This document shows, in pieces, positions 7,552-17,923 of a DNA stretch of 33,836 nt; position 1 is the first letter of the stretch; each line of letters opens with the position of its first letter. Location: positions 1 through 33,836 of the forward strand of contig CAZGJX010000040.1 in NCBI GenBank assembly GCA_964525635.1, given 5' to 3'. The notes under the pieces were generated by a model. That model saw only the letters and a list, made by a program, of their open reading frames with translations, did no database searches and was not told the DNA's origin. The stretch comes from an uncultured archaeon. Lineage in GTDB: Archaea; Asgardarchaeota; Lokiarchaeia; Sigyniarchaeales; SOKP01. Made by a program: the position numbers and the translations under genes.

Positions 7552-10500
7552 CTAATCTTCTAATCCTTCTTCTTCTAATAATGAATCTAAATCAGTTGTC
7601 TTTTTCTTTTCTGGGACTTTTTCTTCTTCTTCTGGTTGAGGTATTTCTGAAACTTTGACATATCTACCTTTTCGCGGTCGTTTTTTCTCTGGTTTTTCAA
7701 TTGGGCGTTCAATTCTTTTCTTTAAGCGATATGAATAATAAAGACTTGCTACCCAGATTAAAGCTATAATAGAAATAATCAATATCATTATTTGATTTTT
7801 GATATCTTCAATAATAGATCTATCTAATACATCAGCTTTAATATTAATACTTATACTATAATTTACCTCAGTTTCAATATTTTTTCCTTCGACAGTAATA
7901 TTAAAGGTCAATGTATTTGTAGGTATATCTTTAAATTTTATTTCAAGTATTAATCTAGTAGTTTGACCTGATTTTAAATTTTCTAATACCAAAATATCTT
8001 GTGCAACTATTTGGTATTTTGGATTAATACCTGTAAATATAAGGGATATGTCTGATATATTTAGATTACTTGTACCCGTATTAGTTAATCTAACTTGTAG
8101 ATAGGAATCCTTATTTCTATATATAACTGAATCAAGTATTACTGCATTAACAGTAATTTCATCAACTAATGAGAAAAAATCTATAGTTATTTCTTCAGTA
8201 TTTTTCAAGTAAATACTTGATCCATTCCAGATTAATTTAAGTGTTATTTTATCTTCCTCAATGCCCAATACACTTGTATCTATTTCAAATAGAGAATATC
8301 CTTTGGAATCTGTTATTTGGGGTGAATCTGAAATATCTACCCATATTCCACTATCATTATATTGACAAGTAACAGATTCACCTGGTAAAACTTTATCAAA
8401 TTCAGTAGTCAATAGTGAACTTATATTAAATTCATTACCATTCATAAATGATTCTGGCGTAATTGCTATATTTTGGAAAATACCTTTTGCTTTTAGTTGA
8501 TATGATGATAAAAATGGTGAATAACTACTAATATAGTGAGTATCTACTATATTCGCTATAAATGTTGTATTATCAGGAAGGTATGTACAATCTTCTCTTT
8601 GAAAAACCTTATGCATTGCTTTAGCTGAGGATAATATAGAACTTTTTAATGAAATGATATATCCTTCAAATTCACTCTCTGTTTGATCAACAAGTAATGC
8701 ATTGTCTGGACAATCATATGTACCTATTGCCTCATCTTCAATATAGATTGTAACAATAGCCTTAGCTCCACCTAATCTTATTGGAGCATTAACACCTGGC
8801 CAAAATCCGTTAGCTTCTAATGTAGGTATATCTAATTCTACTGTAAAGTCCTTGATATAATCTCCATTTGGATCTCCTGCTTGTGATAATTGTTTAACTT
8901 CAGATATATCACTTGCTATGATCCATTCTTCATTCATCAAAGATACTAGATCAACAGACACTTTCATATCGAGATCTATATATGGATCTTTATTTTCTAA
9001 AGTTATATTAAAACTTATCTGCTCCTCTGGATTGATAATTGTCTCATTTTGGAGGAAATTTCTGAGTTCTACATTTAAATCATAACCAGAAACTTCATAT
9101 GTATATTCAATATTTATATTTGAATTATTGATTGCATAAAAATTAGAAGGAAAATCCATTGTTTTATTAATAGAGCCAATATATAGATTATAATATTGAG
9201 ATTCTATAGGTTCGGCCTCTTTCGCAATTTTCGACACAGATAGTAGATTTTGGTCATCCTCTCGATCATATTCTAATATTCCAAATGATACATCATATTG
9301 ATCTATGTAAATAGGTAATGTTCTACAACCTATTGAAGAACCATTATTCCAAAAGATTCCTAACTTATATGTCCCATATACTGGTATAGTTTCATCGATA
9401 TTTAACAGAATTTGATCATCAAATTCATAATAAAGTTGTTTAAAATTATCACTTAGAGTTCCTGAAAAATCTTCAATATTAAGATATACTGATTCATCAG
9501 GATAATATAAAGTCGCATTTGCATACCCATCATGAGGCCCTAAATAGTCTGGACCACCTATATCTACACCTATAGACATATTATCTCCATGCATAAATCC
9601 TTGACTTTCCCATATATTATCATTATAATTAAGATAACTGTAGATTTTATTGACTGCGTTGAAACTTCTAGCCTTAAGAATATAATCTCCATTTTGTTCC
9701 TCAGTCATATTATATGATAAAATTAATTTATCATAGTTATTATTTAATGGTTCTTCTCCATTAGTCTCGCTTATAACATTATCAGGGGTTGATAATGGTG
9801 TAATCAAATGGCTACTGTCAAAATAATATGGGTAGATAAACCACAGTTCAGTAAAATTCCATAAAGCAATCTCAAATATCACGTTAAAAGTAATTGTCCA
9901 TAGTGGTAATTCATCATAATTTACACTATAGGTGACGGAAGTATCATATCTTTCATAAGCTTTTACATAATAGGAGACATTAAAATAGAAGTCATTAGTA
10001 ATAGTGGTATTCCAAATCAAATCAATTTGAAAGTCAGGATTTAAACCATTTGAAAATGGATCTATTATTGAATTATTCCAAAGACCAACACCCCATTGAT
10101 TCATATAATGATTAGTACTAAATCTGTATTTAAAATTTTTATCAGAAGTGTCTTCTAATGGTATACCTTTAATAACAAGGGTCTCATTACCATTTATTTT
10201 AAAATCTGATGGCATATATCCTCTAGTGACATTTAACTTAAATGAACTTGCATCTAAACTACCTGAACCTACGGGACCATTACCTATTGATTGGATTTCC
10301 GCAAGTTGCCATGCACTATCTCCAAAATCATATCTTTTTAGAAGATGATCATATTCGTTATCTCCATAATCAGTTCTTCTGTCAATTGTGATTAATCTAT
10401 ATACATCTGAATTATTTGCTTCTATGATAATGAAGTAATTATAATAGTCAAGTGTTTCTATGGTATTAAATTCAAAATAATTGACTCCATCTTTATTATA

Positions 10501-11643
10501 ATTTAATAATACCGTTGAATATGCTAATTCCGCAGTTTCAGGAATAGCCTCATCAAAATTAGGAATGTTGCCTCTATTTTCTATAATAATATCTGATTTA
10601 TATATTGATATTTTTAATTCTGTAGTTGCTGCTAAAGGAATATCAATAGTTCTTATCCAAGCATAAAATCCGTTTACTATAGTATTATTTCCTCTAATAT
10701 CAAATTCTAATGCTATTGGTTCATTAATATCAATAGGAATTTCAAAAGCATAAGTTGCATTGAATGTAAACTCGTATAATTCAATTTCGTAATCAGATGT
10801 CCCACTATTGAGATAAAAATTAATATAAGTACAATCATTCGTATCATTTACAAGATTAAGATTTTCATTTATTATTCTCTTTGATAATCGAGTTCTTTCT
10901 TTTGAAGCTCCTGAACTTAAGGTTATTGGTCCATGAATATTTTTCCATGAATTATCACGTCTTAAAATTGAAATTGTCAAATCAGCATCAGCTGTTAGAT
11001 TATAAGTAAAATCCATTAAGAAGCCAAGTATCTTTTCTATTTGAAAATTAACTCTTCCATATTCATTACTTGGTGCTCGGAAGAATGTTCCAGAAAAATT
11101 GGCCTTTATTGTAAAGTTAATTATTCCATCACTTGTTGTAATCCTCATTTTTGTATCATTATTATAACCGTAAAATTGATTCTCAAATGTTCCGTATGAA
11201 ATTCCATGGTCTACATTCAACTCCGAACCATCTTCAGTACAACTAAAATATATTAATTTATCTGGATTAATTGATAGAGCATTATCATCTTCTATTGTAT
11301 GATTAGCTACATAATTTTCTTCAAATTCAAAAAACATATCTCCATAATTCAAATACGTATTTTGTTTTGGAGCAGTAATGTTAAACTCTCCATTATTATT
11401 ATTTAGGGAGACAGATCGATTTTCATAATATAATCTTCCCTCTTGATCATCTCCAACTCCTGAAAAAGGAATATCAATATCAGAACTAGTATTTAATAGG
11501 TTAGTTCCATTATTTTCTTCATTAATATTATTCTTAATGTTAGCTCCTTGAAAATTAAATATTGAGAAGCTACTTATTAAAAATACAGCAATAACTATGC
11601 AAGCGAATAGTTTGTTTTTAAATTGTTTTTTATGATGAAGCAA
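7552..11643 (-). CDS. Large single-pass surface glycoprotein (1363 aa) with Ig/CARDB-like segments and charged cytoplasmic tail
   Basis: N-terminal signal peptide (KNKLFACIVIAVFLISSF). Acidic, beta-rich ectodomain with many N-x-S/T sequons. Ig-like motifs QISFNITLEN and LQVRLTNTG. C-terminal TM IMILIISIIALIWVASLYY, then a basic-to-acidic tail. Confidence 0.75.
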   Translation of the reverse strand: MLHHKKQFKNKLFACIVIAVFLISSFSIFNFQGANIKNNINEENNGTNLLNTSSDIDIPFSGVGDDQEGRLYYENRSVSLNNNNGEFNITAPKQNTYLNYGDMFFEFEENYVANHTIEDDNALSINPDKLIYFSCTEDGSELNVDHGISYGTFENQFYGYNNDTKMRITTSDGIINFTIKANFSGTFFRAPSNEYGRVNFQIEKILGFLMDFTYNLTADADLTISILRRDNSWKNIHGPITLSSGASKERTRLSKRIINENLNLVNDTNDCTYINFYLNSGTSDYEIELYEFTFNATYAFEIPIDINEPIALEFDIRGNNTIVNGFYAWIRTIDIPLAATTELKISIYKSDIIIENRGNIPNFDEAIPETAELAYSTVLLNYNKDGVNYFEFNTIETLDYYNYFIIIEANNSDVYRLITIDRRTDYGDNEYDHLLKRYDFGDSAWQLAEIQSIGNGPVGSGSLDASSFKLNVTRGYMPSDFKINGNETLVIKGIPLEDTSDKNFKYRFSTNHYMNQWGVGLWNNSIIDPFSNGLNPDFQIDLIWNTTITNDFYFNVSYYVKAYERYDTSVTYSVNYDELPLWTITFNVIFEIALWNFTELWFIYPYYFDSSHLITPLSTPDNVISETNGEEPLNNNYDKLILSYNMTEEQNGDYILKARSFNAVNKIYSYLNYNDNIWESQGFMHGDNMSIGVDIGGPDYLGPHDGYANATLYYPDESVYLNIEDFSGTLSDNFKQLYYEFDDQILLNIDETIPVYGTYKLGIFWNNGSSIGCRTLPIYIDQYDVSFGILEYDREDDQNLLSVSKIAKEAEPIESQYYNLYIGSINKTMDFPSNFYAINNSNINIEYTYEVSGYDLNVELRNFLQNETIINPEEQISFNITLENKDPYIDLDMKVSVDLVSLMNEEWIIASDISEVKQLSQAGDPNGDYIKDFTVELDIPTLEANGFWPGVNAPIRLGGAKAIVTIYIEDEAIGTYDCPDNALLVDQTESEFEGYIISLKSSILSSAKAMHKVFQREDCTYLPDNTTFIANIVDTHYISSYSPFLSSYQLKAKGIFQNIAITPESFMNGNEFNISSLLTTEFDKVLPGESVTCQYNDSGIWVDISDSPQITDSKGYSLFEIDTSVLGIEEDKITLKLIWNGSSIYLKNTEEITIDFFSLVDEITVNAVILDSVIYRNKDSYLQVRLTNTGTSNLNISDISLIFTGINPKYQIVAQDILVLENLKSGQTTRLILEIKFKDIPTNTLTFNITVEGKNIETEVNYSISINIKADVLDRSIIEDIKNQIMILIISIIALIWVASLYYSYRLKKRIERPIEKPEKKRPRKGRYVKVSEIPQPEEEEKVPEKKKTTDLDSLLEEEGLED

Positions 11644-11810: not shown

Positions 11811-13160
11811 ATGTCTGAAGAATTAATAATTAATTATATAGAAAATAATCGAGAATATTTTATTGAATTTTTAAGGTCTTTAATTCAAATAGATTCCTAT
11901 AATCCTCCAGGTAATGAATTAAATATAGCAATTAAAATAAAAGATTTTTTCGATAAAGAAAATATAAATTCTGAAATCTTTAAGTTTGGTGTTAACAGAG
12001 CTAATTTACTAGCTTGTTTAAATGATAATTTTAAGTCTAAGAATCTTATTTTAAATGGGCATATGGATGTTGTACCATCAGGAGATATTAATGAATGGAA
12101 ATATCCACCTCTATCTGCTTATATAAAAAGAAATAAATATATTTATGGTCGAGGTTCTGCTGATATGAAAGGAGGATTAGCAGCAATGATATTAACATTA
12201 AAAATTTTAAAGGATTTAAATTTAAAAATAAATGGCAATATAATTTTAAATGCAGTAGCAGATGAAGAAACGGCTGGAGATCAAGGTACGGAATGGATGA
12301 TAAAAAATAAAGTTAATTCATTCAACTGTGATTTTGCAATTATAGGAGAACCAACAAATTTTAATCCACTTCCAAAATCTATCATTTTAGGTGAAAGGGG
12401 ACATTTACAAGTAAAAATTATAGCTAATGGGATTTCTTGTCATTCATCTATCCCGTCTATGGGGAAAAATGCAATTTATATGATAAATGATATTATTAAT
12501 AATTTGGATGAGATAGATAATATAATTCCTAAATCAAAACCTCCTATTAGCTTAGAGGAACTAAAGGAATTGGTATCTAAAACATTTCCAAATAAAAATG
12601 CATTTGAGAAGTTTTATAATGAACAAAAATTGATGCAAAATTTTATAAATGCTTTAACAACTTTTACTAAAAGTGTAACAATAATAAAAGGCGGTATAAA
12701 GGATAATGTAATTCCTGATAAATGTGAAATGGTTATTGATTTTAGATTACTTCCATCACAAAAAACAGAAAATATCTTAAACGCTATAAAGAAACTGGTT
12801 AATAAATTAGGTTATAAAATGAAAGATCAATCAGAAGGTTTTGAAGATATATTTATCGATTATGAAATACTTCTTAATAAAGAAGCATCTTATTGGGAAA
12901 ATTGGAAAAATTCTGAAATATTAAAGAAATTTTACAATATTGTTAAGGAAGTATATAAACATGAACCTTTTTATTTCCTTTATCCAGCATGTTCAGATGC
13001 ATTATATCTTAGAAATTCTGGATATTGTAAAGAAACAATTTTATTTGGACCGGGAAATGCAGCTTCAGCACATTCAACTAATGAATTTATTGAAATTAAA
13101 GACTTTTTAAACTCAATAAAAGTATATAGTTTATTTGCTTATAATTTTTTAAAAAGTTAA
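11811..13160 (+). CDS. M20 family metallopeptidase/deacylase (ArgE/DapE-like)
   Basis: LNGHMDVVP, IYGRGSADMKGG, ADEE, IGEPT, SCHSS, GGIKDNVIPD, FGPG...AHSTNE. Confidence 0.92.
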   Translation: MSEELIINYIENNREYFIEFLRSLIQIDSYNPPGNELNIAIKIKDFFDKENINSEIFKFGVNRANLLACLNDNFKSKNLILNGHMDVVPSGDINEWKYPPLSAYIKRNKYIYGRGSADMKGGLAAMILTLKILKDLNLKINGNIILNAVADEETAGDQGTEWMIKNKVNSFNCDFAIIGEPTNFNPLPKSIILGERGHLQVKIIANGISCHSSIPSMGKNAIYMINDIINNLDEIDNIIPKSKPPISLEELKELVSKTFPNKNAFEKFYNEQKLMQNFINALTTFTKSVTIIKGGIKDNVIPDKCEMVIDFRLLPSQKTENILNAIKKLVNKLGYKMKDQSEGFEDIFIDYEILLNKEASYWENWKNSEILKKFYNIVKEVYKHEPFYFLYPACSDALYLRNSGYCKETILFGPGNAASAHSTNEFIEIKDFLNSIKVYSLFAYNFLKS

Positions 13161-13256: not shown

Positions 13257-14438
13257 TTGGAAGACATAAAAATAGAAGATACTGTATTATTAATTGATGC
13301 TTCACGATCTATGTTAAGAAGTGATTTTAAGCCAAATCGAATTACAATTGCTCTAAAAATGGCTTCAAATTTTATTCAAAGTAAATTTCAAATAGATCCA
13401 AAAGATAGAATCTCAATATTAAGTTTTGGAAAGACACCTCAAAAATTATGTAATTTTCTAAATGATGAAGAATCATTAATTAATACACTAAAAAAGATCA
13501 ATGTTTCAGGTAAAGGTATTTTAAAAGATGCTATAGCTTTTGCTTTGCAGATTTTAGTTGAAGAAATGCGTAAAATAGGAGGAAAAAATCCTAGAATCAT
13601 TATAATAAGTGATAATAAATTTGAAACATCTGAAAAGGTAAATAAGATTATTAATTTAGCAAAAGGTTTAGGAATAATTATAGATACCTGCCAAATAGGG
13701 CTGTCAGATAATTATAAAGATAATACATTAAAACGGATTTCGCAAATAACTGGGGGAGAATTTGGATTTTTTAATAATACAAAAGCAATAATCAACGCAG
13801 GAAAAACTTTTGCTTCAAAAAAAAGTTTGAAAAAAACGTCAGATTATTTTTCACCATACAAAAAAAAAGAAATTCCACCCCTTCTCAATGAAATTTCTCT
13901 ACCTTTAAGACGTCCCACAATTATGGAAATTCGGATGATGATGAGTAATCAAGGTATAGGTCAAGAAAAATGTCAGATTTGCCATTCTGTAAAGGCTGCT
14001 TTAACTAGTGCTGACTTCTTTTCTGAAGGAAGATATTGCCCTTCTTGTGATCGTCCAATGCATTTATCGTGTGCTGCATTATGGGCTAGAAAAACAGAAT
14101 ATAAAAATAATGTATTTCGTTGTCCTTTTTGCTATTTTTTATTGAGAGTACCACAAACTATTGTTAAGATTGTTGATGAAATTGAAAAAGACTCACAAAA
14201 GATTAAAATAATAAATGATGCCAGCTCACATTCAACTAAAATGATACTCATAAATAAAGAAATGGTCAATCAAGTCAATGCTTCTTGTTCTTATTGTCAC
14301 AGTATCTTTTTGGGCGATTATGAAGTATTTCAATGTGAAAAATGTGAGTCATATTATCATAAACCTTGTCTTGAAAAGATGTATAAAGAAATAAAAGCTT
14401 GTAGATATTGTGGAAGTCAAATTGTCTTTGAGCAATAA
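13257..14438 (+). CDS. vWA domain protein (Ssl1/p44- and Rpn10-like) with two C4HC3 RING-type zinc fingers
   Basis: vWA: VLLIDASRSMLRSDFKPNR...IIIISD...ISQITGGEF. Finger 1: CQIC-x18-CPSC-x4-HLSC-x16-CPFC (13971-14132). Finger 2: CSYC-x12-CEKC-x4-HKPC-x10-CRYC (14286-14411). Confidence 0.85.
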   Translation: MEDIKIEDTVLLIDASRSMLRSDFKPNRITIALKMASNFIQSKFQIDPKDRISILSFGKTPQKLCNFLNDEESLINTLKKINVSGKGILKDAIAFALQILVEEMRKIGGKNPRIIIISDNKFETSEKVNKIINLAKGLGIIIDTCQIGLSDNYKDNTLKRISQITGGEFGFFNNTKAIINAGKTFASKKSLKKTSDYFSPYKKKEIPPLLNEISLPLRRPTIMEIRMMMSNQGIGQEKCQICHSVKAALTSADFFSEGRYCPSCDRPMHLSCAALWARKTEYKNNVFRCPFCYFLLRVPQTIVKIVDEIEKDSQKIKIINDASSHSTKMILINKEMVNQVNASCSYCHSIFLGDYEVFQCEKCESYYHKPCLEKMYKEIKACRYCGSQIVFEQ

Positions 14439-14585
14439 ATTTTAAGGAGTTTTTCATACTTCTATGCTAAAAATTATTATTTTCATATATAGAGATGGTA
14501 AAATTAATTAAATACCTTTCTTTCTTAAAAAAAATATATAGATTATTTCAAATGTGGAAATTTGAATTATATTGAATATCTATCT

Positions 14586-14592
14586 GAGGTGA
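14586..14592 (+). promoter_or_regulatory. Shine-Dalgarno-like element upstream of metG
   Basis: GAGGTGA matches the archaeal anti-SD complement and lies 6 nt before the in-frame TTA at 14599. Confidence 0.6.
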
Positions 14593-14598
14593 AAAACT

Positions 14599-16650
14599 TT
14601 AAAAGAAAAACAAAAATGGATTATAACATCAGCTTGGCCTTATGTAAATGCAACACCGCATTTAGGCAACCTAATCGGAAGTGTCTTATCAGCAGATATA
14701 TTTGCTAGATTCCTTAGATTAAGAAATGAAGAAGTTGTGTTTGTTTCAGGATCCGATATGCATGGAACTCCTGTAGCTGTAGCTGCAAAACGAAAGAATA
14801 TGAGCCCAGAGAAATTAGCTATGGACAATCATAATATTATTAAGGAATTATTTAAAAAATGGAAGATTTCTTATGATAATTATACTCAAACACATAATTC
14901 AGTGCATATAGATTTTGTTCAAAAATTTTATCTTCATATTCAACAAAATGGATATATTTTCGAGAAAAAGATAAAATCGTTATATTGTTTTAATGACAAT
15001 TTGTTCCTTCCCGATAGATTTGTAGAAGGGATATGTCCTAATTGTAGTTTTGAAAATGCAAGAGGAGATCAATGTGATAAATGTCAAAAACTTTTAACTC
15101 CACTAGAATTAAAAGAACCACGTTGTGCTATATGTAATAAATCACCAAAGATAGTAAAAACAAAACATTGGTACATGAACTTTCCCAAATTACAATCGAA
15201 ATTAGCAAATTTAATTGAGAATAATGATATTATACCTCAAAATGCAAGACAAGTATGTCTTAATAGTATTAAAGAAGGTATACCTGAAAGATCAATAACT
15301 AGAGATTTAGAATGGGGCATTTCTGCACCATTTAAAGGAGCGGAGTCTAAAAGTATATATGTCTGGTTTGAAGCCGTATTAGGTTATATATCTGCAGTTA
15401 AAGAATGGGCTGAAAATATTATAAATGATCCAAGGAGATTTAATTATTTTTGGAATGATGAAAATACCAAAACAGTATATTTTATTGGGAAAGATAATAT
15501 AATTTTTCATTTAATTGTATTTCCTGGATTATTGATGGCATATAATGAAAAAGAAAAAGTGAATGATAAATTTATCTTACCATATAATGTCTCATCTACA
15601 GAATTTTTAATGTTTGAAAATGAAAAATTTTCAAAATCTCATGGTGTTGGAATATGGATTGATGAAGCTTTAGAAATAGCACCATTAGATTATTGGAGAT
15701 TTAATTTAATACTTAATAGACCTGAAAAAAGTGATACATCATTCTTATGGTCTGAATTTGAGAATAATATGAATACTTTAAATGATGTCATCGGTAATTT
15801 TATTCATAGAACTCTGACTTTTATTAATGATCAATTTGATAGTAAAATACCAGAGAAAATTGAATTAGATGAGAAGGATAAAGAGTTTGTTAATAAATTA
15901 GATAATATCTCTGAAAAGATAGGAAATTATTTAATTAATTTTAATTTAAGAAAAGCAATAAGAAAAATTGTTGAATTTGCCAGAGAAGGCAATATATATT
16001 TAAATAATAAAGCCCCTTGGCATCTTATTAAGGAAAATAAAAAAGCAGCGGGGCATGTTTTTAATTTATGTTCCCAATTTGTATATGCTTTAGCTATTTT
16101 ATTAGGGCCATTCATTCCAGATACATCTCAAAAAATTTTAGATTATTTAAATATAAATAAGAGTTTAAATGAACTTGGTTGGCACAGTATTAATGATAAT
16201 TATATGGAAGTAGGAAAAATTGTAAAACAATCAAAACCACTATTCAAAAAAATGGATATTGAAGAGATAAAAGAAAACCTTAATAAAATAAAAAAAAGAA
16301 AAGAAAAAGGAGATAAAAAGGCAATTGAAATGATTTCATATGAAGATTTTAGGAAATTGGATATAAGAGTAGCTGAAATAGAAAATGTCGAGAATATTCC
16401 TAAAGCTAATAAGCTATATAAACTTTCAATTAAATTTGATGATGAAAAAAAAACTGTAGTTGCTGGTATAGCTGAAAGTTATAAACCAGAAGAATTGATC
16501 GGAAAGAAAATAATTGTATTAACTAATTTGGAACCCAAGAAAATACGAGGGATCTTAAGTGAAGGAATGTTATTAGTTGCTACTGAAGGCGATAATCTTT
16601 CTATTTTAACAATTGATAAAGAGATTAAATCGGGATCTAAAATAGAATAA
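14599..16650 (+). CDS. metG: Methionine--tRNA ligase (archaeal type, two Zn knuckles, C-terminal Trbp111-like tRNA-binding domain); start codon uncertain
   Basis: The frame upstream of the ORF-track start (14737) reads LKEKQKWIITSAWPYVNATPHLGN (HIGH motif). Also SGSDMHG, ARGDQC, SITRDLEWG, YVWFEA, FIGKDNIIFH, KFSKS (KMSKS) and C-terminal LDIRVA...SEGMLL. Confidence 0.97.
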   Translation, partial: LKEKQKWIITSAWPYVNATPHLGNLIGSVLSADIFARFLRLRNEEVVFVSGSDMHGTPVAVAAKRKNMSPEKLAMDNHNIIKELFKKWKISYDNYTQTHNSVHIDFVQKFYLHIQQNGYIFEKKIKSLYCFNDNLFLPDRFVEGICPNCSFENARGDQCDKCQKLLTPLELKEPRCAICNKSPKIVKTKHWYMNFPKLQSKLANLIENNDIIPQNARQVCLNSIKEGIPERSITRDLEWGISAPFKGAESKSIYVWFEAVLGYISAVKEWAENIINDPRRFNYFWNDENTKTVYFIGKDNIIFHLIVFPGLLMAYNEKEKVNDKFILPYNVSSTEFLMFENEKFSKSHGVGIWIDEALEIAPLDYWRFNLILNRPEKSDTSFLWSEFENNMNTLNDVIGNFIHRTLTFINDQFDSKIPEKIELDEKDKEFVNKLDNISEKIGNYLINFNLRKAIRKIVEFAREGNIYLNNKAPWHLIKENKKAAGHVFNLCSQFVYALAILLGPFIPDTSQKILDYLNINKSLNELGWHSINDNYMEVGKIVKQSKPLFKKMDIEEIKENLNKIKKRKEKGDKKAIEMISYEDFRKLDIRVAEIENVENIPKANKLYKLSIKFDDEKKTVVAGIAESYKPEELIGKKIIVLTNLEPKKIRGILSEGMLLVATEGDNLSILTIDKEIKSGSKIE

Positions 16651-16699: not shown

Positions 16700-17923
16700 T
16701 TATAATTTTAAACTAAAGATAGGATTTAATCTTGCTATAATTCCACCCAAATCTAATTGAAGTGTTTTAAGTATAATATCTCTACCACGGTATTCAAATT
16801 GTACGTTTGTTGGTTCTCTTATAATCTTTTTTGTTTTATGATTACACGCAAGGACAAAGTAGCGTTGATCCTTATATTCTAATACTTCCATTACATTTTT
16901 AATATCCGGAAATCTATATCCAGCACCATGTGGTAAAATGTTCGCATTTTGTAATTTTTCTAAAACTTCAAATTTTTCTGCTCTTTCTATGAAATTTTGA
17001 TTTTTTATAGTCGTTATTGATAGATTTTTTTTCCCTTCAAAAAGGTATGCGGGTAAATCAGATCTTAACGCAATAGGAAAAATATTAGACTCAATCATAT
17101 TACTGTTTATATTCGTACAATTACTTCCCAAATAAATACTATTTGGATTTTCTAGAAACTGGTGATGTTGATCACAAATTTTTTTAAAATTATTTTCAAA
17201 TAAATATTTAGCAATAATTTCTCTTTTATTTTTTGAAAAATTTAATACTTTATTATTTAATTCCATATATGTGTTTACATTAGAATCTAATAAAATATAT
17301 TGATTTCCGAAAGGAGTGTTCTCCTTTATCGCTATATTTTTTAAATTATCAGATTTATCGATATATATTCCTATACCATATTTATCCCCACGTAGTTCAG
17401 GTGCGGAACCATGAATAAGAAAAATATATGGAGGAAATTCAATATCAGAGAGATATTTTGTTTCAAATAAGCTGATAAAATGATTACTTATACCGAAATC
17501 CCAATTTAATAATATATTTTGATGATAAATTTCTTTTTGTTTTATCTCATCTATTTTTTTTATTATGTCAAAAGGGTCTATTTGCTCTGACAATCCACCT
17601 ACAAATATCCCACATTGATTAGGTTTTGTATTTAAAAACAAGATTTCATCATTTCCAGAACCCCAAACAATCTTACCGCCATATCCAAAACCAGAATTCC
17701 ATCGAAATTTATTTCTTGAAATTGTTTCATCAGGAGATGAAATAAACATTGCTGTGGGATCAAATCCATATTTTTCTTGAATCAAGTGCATTTGTGCTAG
17801 CCCATACTTCATATTTTGTTTGCAAAGTTCGGATGTGCCATCATTTATTCCAGTGGAGTATATAAATTGGTTAGCTCTTTCAAGAATTTCTGATTTTGAT
17901 AGAGAAGATATTTGTTTACCCAT
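16700..17923 (-). CDS. Divergent RtcB-fold protein (RNA 3'-phosphate ligase/guanylyltransferase-like)
   Basis: Motifs occur in RtcB order: SPD...GFGYGG, NQCG, FGISNHF, LIHGS, DQHHQ, LPHGAG, EYR, and C-terminal ARLNPIFSLK. Confidence 0.7.
   Translation of the reverse strand: MGKQISSLSKSEILERANQFIYSTGINDGTSELCKQNMKYGLAQMHLIQEKYGFDPTAMFISSPDETISRNKFRWNSGFGYGGKIVWGSGNDEILFLNTKPNQCGIFVGGLSEQIDPFDIIKKIDEIKQKEIYHQNILLNWDFGISNHFISLFETKYLSDIEFPPYIFLIHGSAPELRGDKYGIGIYIDKSDNLKNIAIKENTPFGNQYILLDSNVNTYMELNNKVLNFSKNKREIIAKYLFENNFKKICDQHHQFLENPNSIYLGSNCTNINSNMIESNIFPIALRSDLPAYLFEGKKNLSITTIKNQNFIERAEKFEVLEKLQNANILPHGAGYRFPDIKNVMEVLEYKDQRYFVLACNHKTKKIIREPTNVQFEYRGRDIILKTLQLDLGGIIARLNPIFSLKL

What the first reader, a model, noticed from the sequence alone, without database searches (positions are those of the whole stretch)
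13257..14438. Archaeal vWA + double RING-finger protein bridging TFIIH p44/Ssl1 and proteasome Rpn10
Seen: a vWA domain starting IEDTVLLIDASRSMLRSDFKPNR, followed by two C4HC3 fingers. Recalled knowledge: p44/Ssl1 begins xxDxSxxMxxxD[LF]xPNR, has LARETGG near the vWA end, a GYFCPQC zinc motif, and a terminal RING-like finger C-x2-C-x11-C-x2-C-x4-C-x2-C-x10-C-x2-C. Rpn10/PSMD4 begins LE[AS]Txxx[IV]DNSEYxRNGDFxxTR. This protein has ISQITGG, GRYCPSC and a terminal finger C-x2-C-x12-C-x2-C-x4-H-x2-C-x10-C-x2-C, almost the p44 spacing, while its extreme N-terminus (EDTVLLID...RSDF...SK...P) is Rpn10-like. Inference: a descendant of the common ancestor of these eukaryotic subunits, possibly an XPD-helicase partner and/or E3 ligase in an archaeon with a ubiquitin system. 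It keeps DxSxS and the late Asp of MIDAS but apparently not the Thr.
Basis: partly seen in the sequence, partly recalled or inferred. Interest (0 to 1): 0.8.

Follow-up and report, generated by a model that had tools for sequence, protein, structure and literature searches.

The report
Lokiarchaeal p44-like vWA double-RING protein
This Asgard-archaeal gene joins a protein-docking vWA domain to two RING-type zinc fingers in the same order as the eukaryotic TFIIH subunit p44; it most likely works as a ubiquitin-ligase-type adaptor, and descent shared with p44 or Rpn10 is possible but not shown.

Summary

The scan has met this family several times on other genomes. Those follow-ups reached the same broad verdict.

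New here:
- **Sequence and structure against solved proteins.** A family vWA profile ranks Rpn10 (80.8 bits) and p44 (65.9) above the solved bacterial vWA domains (at most 53.7). Separate structural searches put p44 first for the whole model, the vWA domain and the C-terminal finger.
- **Sequence against all proteins.** Among 1.84 billion representatives, at least 150 score above Rpn10 and p44 (89 bits or more). About 90 of them are outside the family, and many are BatA-type or small soluble vWA proteins. Sequence therefore does not single out the eukaryotic proteins.
- **Distribution.** The family was found in every genome of one Lokiarchaeial order (41/41) and in none of 157 other Asgard genomes sampled.
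- **Two old clades.** Clade A (this gene) lies next to metG. Clade B lies divergently next to a Gtr1/RagA-like GTPase.
- **Finger 1.** It keeps the Ile/Trp/Pro positions that RING E3s use to bind E2, and E2 genes occur in 61/61 genomes of the order.

Best reading: a RING E3-type adaptor built like p44. No link to XPD, p34 or the proteasome was found.

The parts
13257..14438 (+). Whole gene: 393-aa vWA + RING + RING protein (clade A of the family), TTG start
   Evidence: ORF list. 100% to 60% identical homologues of the same length. Present in 41/41 genomes of the order.
13272..13820 (+). Compact vWA domain (residues 6-188), starting at the very N-terminus as in Rpn10
   Evidence: Pfam VWA_2, VWA and Ssl1. 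Family profile against PDB: Rpn10 80.8 bits, p44 65.9, bacterial 4rck 53.7. Model pLDDT mostly above 90. VIA Z: 24.9 for p44, 22.8 for Rpn10, 22.4-21.3 for bacterial vWA.
13296..13310 (+). MIDAS motif D14-x-S16-x-S18; with D119 (13611-13613) it forms an incomplete metal site that lacks the Thr
   Evidence: Column counts in 44 members: D 44/44, S 41/44, S 42/44, D119 42/44. The Thr position is K/N/R.
13323..13340 (+). D-F-K-P-N-R motif after the MIDAS loop. It is shared with p44 and Rpn10, and also with BatA-type and small soluble prokaryotic vWA proteins
   Evidence: D23 43/44, P26 43/44, R28 44/44. The same motif appears in the consensus of the BatA-like and small soluble sets.
13869..13952 (+). 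Conserved linker (residues 205-232) with two short helices and the L-P-L-R-R-P motif; L217 is invariant
   Evidence: Alignment A2. Helices 210-213 and 222-229 in the model.
13971..14132 (+). Finger 1 (residues 239-292): a C4HC3 cross-brace RING-type finger with Ile241, Trp276 and Pro290 at the usual E2-contact positions
   Evidence: All eight ligands are invariant; I241 43/44, W276 43/44, P290 40/44. Best fold matches are the FANCL RING (Z 6.4, rmsd 1.9, 62 residues), Listerin and Nse1. Weak sequence hits to a KMT2D PHD finger, FANCL, EL5 and Nse1.
14226..14417 (+). Finger 2 module (residues 324-387): a beta-hairpin plus a C4HC3 finger (ligands 344-385)
   Evidence: Sequence profile: Arkadia/RNF165/RNF24 RING-H2, E 3.7e-6. 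Fold: the p44/Ssl1 C-terminal RING takes the top 4 of 48,161 representatives (Z 7.6-6.7) and the top 14 in the second look (Z 8.1-6.7). The next RINGs score 6.6 or less.
11811..13160 (+). Conserved upstream neighbour: M20-family peptidase (context only)
   Evidence: Pfam Peptidase_M20 120 bits. Adjacent in all 9 relatives' loci of family f1 and in G018 and G011.
14599..16650 (+). Conserved downstream neighbour: methionyl-tRNA synthetase (context only; its start codon is unclear)
   Evidence: Pfam tRNA-synt_1g 471 bits. Next to clade-A genes in families f1, f2 and f4 of the order.

Best explanation
The gene encodes a cytosolic RING-type ubiquitin (or ubiquitin-like) ligase adaptor that is laid out like TFIIH p44.

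**Shown.**
- A compact vWA domain of the Rpn10/p44 size class sits at the N-terminus, with an incomplete metal site.
- A conserved linker follows.
- Finger 1 is a binuclear C4HC3 finger that keeps the hydrophobic Ile/Trp/Pro positions.
- A helix follows, then finger 2, a second C4HC3 finger whose predicted fold is most like the p44 C-terminal RING.

**Inferred.**
- The vWA domain docks a specific client or partner protein.
- Finger 1 recruits one of the organism's E2~Ub conjugates through those hydrophobic positions.
- Finger 2 makes a protein-protein contact. In p44 the matching RING binds the vWA domain of p34, so a partner or a paralogue is a candidate.

The family has split into old clades that keep different neighbours: this clade metG, clade B a Rag-like GTPase. 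That pattern suggests each clade serves its own client.
For: - Domain anatomy and conservation.
- Finger 1: I241 43/44, W276 43/44, P290 40/44, all eight ligands invariant. Its fold is nearest to the active E3 FANCL RING in its complex with an E2 (4ccg, Z 6.4, rmsd 1.9).
- Finger 2 profile hits active RING-H2 E3s: Arkadia and RNF165, E 3.7e-6.
- The own genome has two E2 genes and two ubiquitin-like genes. E2 is present in 61/61 genomes of the order and the family in 41/41.
- p44/Ssl1 is described as having ubiquitin-ligase activity, and its RING resembles the RNF38 and Ark2C E3 RINGs (PMC5737387). 'p44-like' and 'E3-like' therefore do not conflict.
- There are no transmembrane segments, no BatA domain and no MoxR neighbour.
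Against: - No ligase activity was measured.
- No gene-neighbourhood link to E1, E2, Ub or JAB genes. These lie on other contigs.
- The C4HC3 spacing is also that of PHD fingers, which read peptides and do not ligate (PHD 22 bits, below cut-off).
- No Arg or Lys follows the last Cys of finger 1; that position is Tyr/Phe.
- Finger 2 lacks the Trp and Pro.
- In some clade-A orthologues the DxSxS serines are lost (G032, G038, G025), so metal-dependent docking cannot be universal.
Confidence: 0.5

Rival explanations
1. It is a true p44/Ssl1 counterpart: a scaffold that binds and regulates the archaeal XPD helicase through its vWA domain and holds partner subunits through its C-terminal RING, as in the TFIIH core.
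For: - Foldseek ranks 1-23 are all p44/Ssl1, aligned over about 390 columns (E 2e-18).
- The vWA domain's best Z is to p44 (24.9, rmsd 1.9, 181 residues).
- Finger 2's best matches out of 48,161 chains are p44 RINGs.
- Ssl1 Pfam passes its cut-off in 42/44 members. In the own genome only clades A and B pass, and none pass in 14 control genomes.
- Two XPD-like genes are in the genome.
- Length is 393 aa, against 395 for human p44.
Against: - No Tfb4/p34 homologue (best E 0.14).
- Paralogue C shows no p34 signal.
- The fingers have no sequence similarity to p44's fingers, and no C1_4 hit.
- The XPD genes are on other contigs.
- XPD is widespread in archaea that lack this family (own knowledge; compare the control genomes).
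- The family was found in only one order of the phylum.
- Rpn10 scores higher than p44 by sequence.
- The Z margins over other vWA and RING domains are only 1-2.5 units.
Confidence: 0.15
2. It is an Rpn10-like receptor that docks through its vWA domain on the proteasome-activating ATPase or another degradation machine, with the fingers replacing the UIM motifs as the substrate or ubiquitin-binding part.
For: - Rpn10 is the best sequence match among solved proteins: 80.8 bits with the family profile, an almost gap-free alignment from residue 2.
- In both proteins the vWA domain starts at the extreme N-terminus.
- VIA Z 22.8, rmsd 2.1 over 183 residues.
Against: - No UIM was reported by Pfam at E <= 1.
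- There are no proteasome, PAN or JAB neighbours in the ORFs flanking the gene that were read.
- About 90 proteins outside the family score higher than Rpn10 with the same profile.
Confidence: 0.07
3. It is a non-ubiquitin adaptor or regulator: the fingers act as PHD/C1-like peptide or ligand readers, the vWA domain as a docking module, and the client is encoded nearby (MetRS or the M20 peptidase).
For: - Adjacency to metG is kept across families f1, f2 and f4 of the order, and adjacency to the M20 peptidase within f1.
- C4HC3 spacing is typical of PHD fingers, and there are weak PHD and C1_1 hits.
- The sister clade B keeps a different fixed neighbour, a RagA-like GTPase.
Against: - metG probably has its own promoter: the gap is 160 nt and AT-rich.
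- Synteny of housekeeping genes can persist without a functional link.
- Finger 1 keeps the E2-contact-type residues.
- The best sequence hits of finger 2 are catalytic RING-H2 domains.
Confidence: 0.15

Closest known systems
TFIIH core subunit p44 / GTF2H2 / yeast Ssl1 (Pfam Ssl1 PF04056 + C1_4 PF07975)
   Same: - Same order of parts: vWA, a central zinc module, a C-terminal binuclear RING.
- Almost the same length.
- The vWA domain passes the Ssl1 Pfam cut-off.
- p44 is the best structural match for the whole model, for the vWA domain and for finger 2.
- Finger 2 has nearly the p44 spacing.
- p44/Ssl1 is itself reported as an E3 (PMC5737387).
   Different: - The central module here is a full binuclear C4HC3 RING, not p44's smaller zinc finger.
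- Ligand 5 is His, not Cys, in both fingers.
- There is no C1_4 hit and no sequence similarity in the fingers.
- p44's roughly 50-residue N-terminal extension is absent.
- No p34/Tfb4 partner is in the genome.
- No link to XPD was found.
26S proteasome subunit Rpn10 / PSMD4
   Same: It is the best sequence match of the vWA domain among solved proteins (80.8 bits). The vWA domain starts at residue 2 in both, and the alignment is almost gap-free.
   Different: Rpn10 has UIM motifs after the vWA domain and no zinc fingers, and it lacks the DxSxS serines (alignment). No proteasome context is seen here.
RING E3 ligases with C4HC3 or RING-H2 fingers (FANCL, Listerin, Nse1, Arkadia/RNF165, RNF38)
   Same: Cross-brace fold, eight conserved ligands, and Ile/Trp/Pro at the E2-contact positions of finger 1.
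   Different: None of these carries an N-terminal vWA domain or this double-finger arrangement. Activity is untested here.
Prokaryotic BatA/BatB-type and small soluble vWA proteins
   Same: They share the DxSxSM...D..P.R motif. Their best representatives score 90-112 bits against the family's vWA profile, higher than Rpn10 or p44.
   Different: - They have transmembrane segments and a BatA domain, or no further domain at all, and never the fingers.
- Their vWA domain is 20-30 residues longer than the aligned core.
- A BatA-type profile scores Rpn10 at only 38 bits and p44 at 26.
- The Ssl1 model matches 5/17 of them, against 42/44 here.
Plant RGLG1/2 (copine-type vWA + RING E3) and yeast Ste5/Far1 (RING + PH + vWA)
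   Same: These are eukaryotic proteins that combine a vWA domain with a RING (own knowledge for RGLG; PMC3023161 abstract for Ste5/Far1).
   Different: The domain order, the number of fingers and the vWA subtype differ. They were not among the sequence or fold matches here.

Membership tests
TFIIH p44/Ssl1 | Ssl1-type vWA domain (Pfam PF04056 above its cut-off) | tested here: met
   41.6 bits against a cut-off of 27. 42/44 family members match. The model is not exclusive: 5/17 BatA-like and 8/19 small soluble vWA proteins also match at E <= 0.001.
TFIIH p44/Ssl1 | C-terminal C4C4 RING (Pfam C1_4 PF07975) | tested here: inconclusive
   No C1_4 hit at E <= 1 and no sequence hit to the p44 RING. 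Ligand 5 is His. The predicted fold of residues 320-386 nevertheless matches p44 RINGs best (Z 8.1-6.7, against 6.6 or less for other RINGs).
TFIIH p44/Ssl1 | Central zinc finger between the vWA domain and the RING | tested here: inconclusive
It is a full binuclear C4HC3 finger whose nearest folds are FANCL, Listerin and Nse1 RINGs.
TFIIH p44/Ssl1 | Partner subunit p34/Tfb4 encoded in the genome | tested here: not met
   PF03850 best E 0.14, 12.7 bits, and that hit falls on paralogue B itself. Paralogue C gives no p34 hit in PDB.
TFIIH p44/Ssl1 | Binds XPD and stimulates its helicase activity | not testable with these tools
   XPD-like genes exist (C42, C84) but lie on other contigs. No complex prediction tool was available.
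TFIIH p44/Ssl1 | vWA domain groups with p44 in a phylogeny | not tested
   No tool returned eukaryotic p44, p34 or Rpn10 sequences. By bit score, at least 150 representatives, about 90 of them outside the family, lie above p44.
Proteasome Rpn10 | N-terminal vWA domain of the Rpn10 type | tested here: met
   Family profile: 80.8 bits to S. pombe Rpn10, 75.5 to human, aligned from residue 2.
Proteasome Rpn10 | C-terminal ubiquitin-interacting motifs (UIM) | tested here: not met
   Pfam reports no UIM at E <= 1. The C-terminal half is two zinc fingers.
RING-type E3 ligase | Cross-brace binuclear finger with eight conserved ligands | tested here: met
   Both fingers: ligands invariant in 44 members, except C371 at 43/44. 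RING fold matches.
RING-type E3 ligase | Hydrophobic E2-contact residues (Ile after Cys1, Trp after ligand 6, Pro after Cys7) | tested here: met
   Finger 1: I241 43/44, W276 43/44, P290 40/44. Finger 2 lacks the Trp and Pro. Assigning these positions to E2 contact rests on general knowledge of RING E3s.
RING-type E3 ligase | E2 and ubiquitin-like protein present in the organism | tested here: met
   UQ_con at 95 and 94 bits, two ubiquitin-family hits. E2 in 61/61 genomes of the order.
RING-type E3 ligase | Catalyses Ub/Ubl transfer | not testable with these tools
   Needs an in vitro assay.
BatA/MoxR-associated prokaryotic vWA proteins | N-terminal BatA/transmembrane segments, or a MoxR AAA+ neighbour | tested here: not met
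   No BatA hit. The direct neighbours are an M20 peptidase and MetRS. BatA-type hits have 2-3 hydrophobic segments that this family's members lack.

The most novel reading that the evidence does not exclude
The eukaryotic TFIIH subunit p44/Ssl1 descends from an Asgard vWA-RING-RING ligase family of this kind. Under this reading the vWA domain and the C-terminal RING were kept, and the first RING decayed into p44's central zinc finger. An archaeal E3-type adaptor would then have been recruited as a structural and regulatory core subunit of the transcription/repair factor. The related compact vWA domain of Rpn10 may share that root.
Probability: 0.3. Interest if true: 0.85.

Novelty: new variant of a known kind. 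Interest (0 to 1): 0.6.

Why it matters
The non-helicase core subunits of TFIIH have no accepted prokaryotic relatives (own knowledge).

Here is an archaeal protein whose three parts lie in the p44 order. Its two terminal domains each find p44 as their best structural match. That gives a concrete, testable candidate for the origin of a TFIIH core subunit, and for how RING ligases were wired to docking domains before eukaryotes arose.

Even if the likeness is convergent, the family is a strongly conserved, multi-paralogue set of probable E3 adaptors in Lokiarchaeia. Asgard ubiquitin systems still lack known substrates (own knowledge). The fixed pairing of clade B with a Rag-like GTPase points to a first candidate client.

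Tried and rejected
- **vWA phylogeny with p44, p34 and Rpn10: not possible.** The single search of 1.84 billion representatives listed only its best 150, all above the Rpn10 and p44 scores. A second word-indexed search with the vWA profile returned only fragments of the family. Sequences seen only in PDB alignments were not typed in.
- **Literature.** Six full-text searches found no paper describing an Asgard vWA-RING protein. The Burroughs et al. 2011 paper on prokaryotic RINGs is not held.
- **p34-like partner.** Tfb4 Pfam gave nothing. Paralogue C against PDB gave only weak RING or PHD hits.
- **Sequence similarity of the fingers to p44.** None with finger profiles or with the full-length profile.
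- **C-terminal half by Foldseek.** No match at E <= 0.001. Only the VIA searches ranked p44 first.
- **Linkage to the ubiquitin system.** E2 and Ub-like genes are on other contigs. One E2 lies 4 kb from a clade-C/D paralogue in G007, but this is not a general pattern.
- **RBR reading.** Rejected by reading: there is no Cys-rich IBR between the fingers, only about 50 residues of helix and loop.
- **Terminator scan.** None found.
- **NCBI labels.** 'Thor-', 'Odin-' and 'Hodarchaeota' labels on 60-63% identical hits do not fit the genome survey, which found nothing outside one order. I treat those labels as unreliable.
Full report
**Observation.** The window is AT-rich, 21-29% G+C. It lies on contig C40 of a 4.45-Mb, 100%-complete Asgard genome. 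ORF 13257-14438 (+) encodes 393 aa. In an alignment of 44 family members, all sixteen zinc ligands are invariant except C371 (43/44). D14, S16, S18 and D119 of the MIDAS site are kept in 41-44 of 44 members. The Thr position is K/N/R, and T in only 2/44. Pfam finds VWA_2, VWA and, above its curated cut-off, Ssl1. The fingers get sub-threshold PHD, C1_1, Prok-RING_1 and zf-RING_2 hits.

**Who has it.**
- More than 400 clusters of about 393 aa at 60-81% identity exist in public data, annotated only as 'VWA domain-containing protein'.
- In whole genomes the protein is present in 41 of 41 relatives of the same order.
- In a sample of 201 genomes of the phylum it occurs in 43 of 43 genomes of families f1 and f2. 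It occurs in none of 157 genomes from 27 other families at E <= 1e-20.
- With a full-length profile, the best hit outside the order is E 3.6e-12, which amounts to a lone vWA or RING domain.
- The family is therefore specific to one Lokiarchaeial order among the genomes searched. The 'Thor/Odin/Hod' labels are probably mislabelled bins.

**Paralogues and clades.**
- The own genome carries paralogue B (C18:43906-45105, 34% identical, same architecture).
- It also carries shorter paralogues with a MIDAS-less vWA domain and one RING, on C22, C76 and C24.
- A maximum-likelihood tree of 30 full-length members gives two clades with 100/100 support. Each spans families f1, f2 and f3/f4, so the duplication is older than the order.
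- Clade A, which holds this gene, lies upstream of metG in f1, f2 and f4, and downstream of an M20 peptidase in f1.
- Clade B lies divergently next to a Gtr1/RagA-like GTPase in 10 of 12 loci, usually with a TPR/alpha-SNAP-like gene nearby.

**How close is the vWA domain to p44 and Rpn10?**

Among solved structures:

| Measure | p44 / Ssl1 | Rpn10 | Bacterial vWA |
|---|---|---|---|
| Family profile, 29 sequences of clades A and B, bits | 65.9 human; 45-48 fungal Ssl1 | 80.8 S. pombe; 75.5 human; 67.5-62.4 other species | 53.7 (4rck); 46.6 (BatB) |
| VIA-align Z on the vWA domain | 24.9-23.1, rmsd 1.8-2.2 over 179-183 residues | 22.8-21.1 | 22.4-21.3, covering 172-174 of 201-426 residues |

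- In the predicted structure (pLDDT 82.6), Foldseek ranks 1-23 are all p44/Ssl1, aligned over about 390 columns at E 2e-18.
- The Ssl1 Pfam model passes its cut-off only for clades A and B in this genome, and in none of 14 control genomes.
- That model matches 42/44 members, against 5/17 BatA-like and 8/19 small soluble vWA proteins.
- A BatA-type profile scores Rpn10 at only 38 bits and p44 at 26.
- So the domain belongs to the same compact, cytosolic vWA type as Rpn10 and p44.

Among all sequences the picture changes:
- The same profile, searched against 1.84 billion representatives, gives 27,672 hits at E <= 1e-3.
- Its best 150 end at 89.4 bits, above Rpn10 and p44.
- After about 60 family members, those ranks hold BatA-type membrane vWA proteins (for example P0203, 98 bits), small soluble vWA proteins of 200-260 aa (P0177 at 112 bits, P0195 at 101), and multi-vWA giants whose scores sum several domains.
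- By interpolating the reported counts, Rpn10 would rank in the low hundreds and p44 near a thousand. This is my estimate, not a tool result.
- Sequence therefore does not single out the eukaryotic proteins.
- A tree could not be built, because no eukaryotic sequences could be obtained.

**The fingers.**
- At the sequence level neither finger matches p44's zinc modules.
- Finger 2 matches catalytic RING-H2 domains: Arkadia, RNF165 and RNF24, best E 3.7e-6. Finger 1 weakly matches a KMT2D PHD finger, FANCL, EL5 and Nse1.
- I folded residues 204-393 alone (pLDDT 81.8). Foldseek found nothing at E <= 0.001.
- An exhaustive VIA-align search of 48,161 representative chains placed p44/Ssl1 C-terminal RINGs at ranks 1-4: Z 7.6, 7.5, 7.3 and 6.7, rmsd 2.6-3.2 over 61-66 residues. 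These were ahead of ZNRF1, HRD1, RNF12 and FANCL at 6.6-6.4.
- In the second look at Foldseek's candidates, the top 14 rows are all p44/Ssl1 (Z 8.1-6.7), aligning protein residues 320-386 with human p44 322-386.
- The margin is about 1-1.5 Z units on a small domain, so it is suggestive and no more.
- Finger 1 is nearest to the FANCL RING in its E2 complex (Z 6.4, rmsd 1.9), Listerin and Nse1.
- Finger 1 keeps I241 (43/44), W276 (43/44) and P290 (40/44). By general knowledge of RING E3s, these positions form the E2-binding surface. Finger 2 lacks the Trp and Pro.
- The paper on the p34-p44 complex states that the p44 RING resembles the RNF38 and Ark2C RINGs, binds p34 in an E3-E2-like fashion, and that Ssl1/p44 was described as a ubiquitin ligase (PMC5737387).

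**Context for function.**
- The genome has two E2 genes, two ubiquitin-family genes and two XPD-like genes, all on other contigs.
- E2 occurs in 61/61 genomes of the order.
- No Tfb4/p34 homologue was found, and paralogue C shows no p34 signal.
- No MoxR, BatA, proteasome or JAB gene lies among the ORFs flanking the gene that were read.
- The gap to metG is 160 nt and AT-rich, so co-transcription is not implied.

**Reading.**
- The best-supported explanation is a RING-type E3 adaptor. The vWA domain docks a client, finger 1 recruits E2~Ub, and finger 2 makes a protein contact as the p44 RING does. Confidence is about 0.5.
- Shown: the anatomy, its conservation, the presence of an E2/Ub system, and the structural ranking.
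- Inferred: E2 binding, ligase activity and the identity of the client.
- Rivals: a true p44-like XPD scaffold (0.15), an Rpn10-like receptor (0.07), and a non-ubiquitin adaptor tied to MetRS or the M20 peptidase (0.15).
- The most novel reading not excluded is that p44 descends from such an Asgard vWA-RING-RING protein. I put this at about 0.3.
  - For: three separate structural searches (whole model, vWA domain, C-terminal finger) rank p44 first, the parts are collinear, and the length is the same.
  - Against: the restricted distribution, the missing partners, the lack of finger sequence similarity, and the non-exclusive vWA similarity.

**Relation to earlier notes of this scan.**
- The same family was reported on at least six other genomes.
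- The follow-ups concluded 'ubiquitin-ligase-like adaptor, p44 descent unproven'. My results agree.
- One note said the domains are no closer to p44 than ordinary prokaryotic vWA and RING domains. That holds for sequence. It does not fully hold for predicted structure, where p44 leads for both terminal domains.

Noticed in passing
G000:C18:42397-47285 (locus L038), and loci L041-L052: Paralogue clade B of the vWA-RING-RING family sits divergently next to a Gtr1/RagA-like small GTPase (Pfam 91 bits). The pairing holds in 10 of 12 loci across families f1, f2 and f3 of the order, usually with an MtrH-like gene and a TPR/alpha-SNAP-like gene downstream. This may be a conserved pair of a Rag-type GTPase and a RING adaptor.
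   Followed up: partly
window 14439-14740: The MetRS frame is open from about 14593 and matches tRNA-synt_1g from its first residues when read from 14599. The first ATG/GTG/TTG in that frame is at 14737, downstream of the catalytic N-terminus. An ATG at 14616 is in another frame.
   Followed up: partly
window 16700-17923 (-): A 407-aa ORF conserved in relatives (57-81% identity) has no Pfam hit at E <= 0.001. An earlier first-reader note calls it a divergent RtcB-like enzyme.
   Followed up: no
window 13257 and loci L002-L009: The TTG start codon of the gene is kept in most close orthologues (L002-L009), while L010 uses ATG. This may point to deliberately low translation initiation.
   Followed up: no
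loci L022, L023, L026 (G032, G038, G025): The metG-adjacent clade-A orthologues of family f2 sit on very long branches and have lost the DxSxS serines (D-C-T-E/K-N/S-M). The metal site is therefore dispensable in part of the clade.
   Followed up: partly
proteins P0143, P0157, P0158: Forms of 619-686 aa, of which P0143 and P0157 are labelled Helarchaeota, carry the same vWA domain and first RING, then a long extra C-terminal region. In P0143 that region ends in several CxxC pairs.
   Followed up: no
window 7552-11643 (-): A 1363-aa protein has an N-terminal hydrophobic segment, many N-x-S/T sites, and a C-terminal membrane anchor followed by a Lys/Glu-rich tail. It is conserved at 33-35% identity next to the M20 peptidase gene in G018 and G011.
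   Followed up: no
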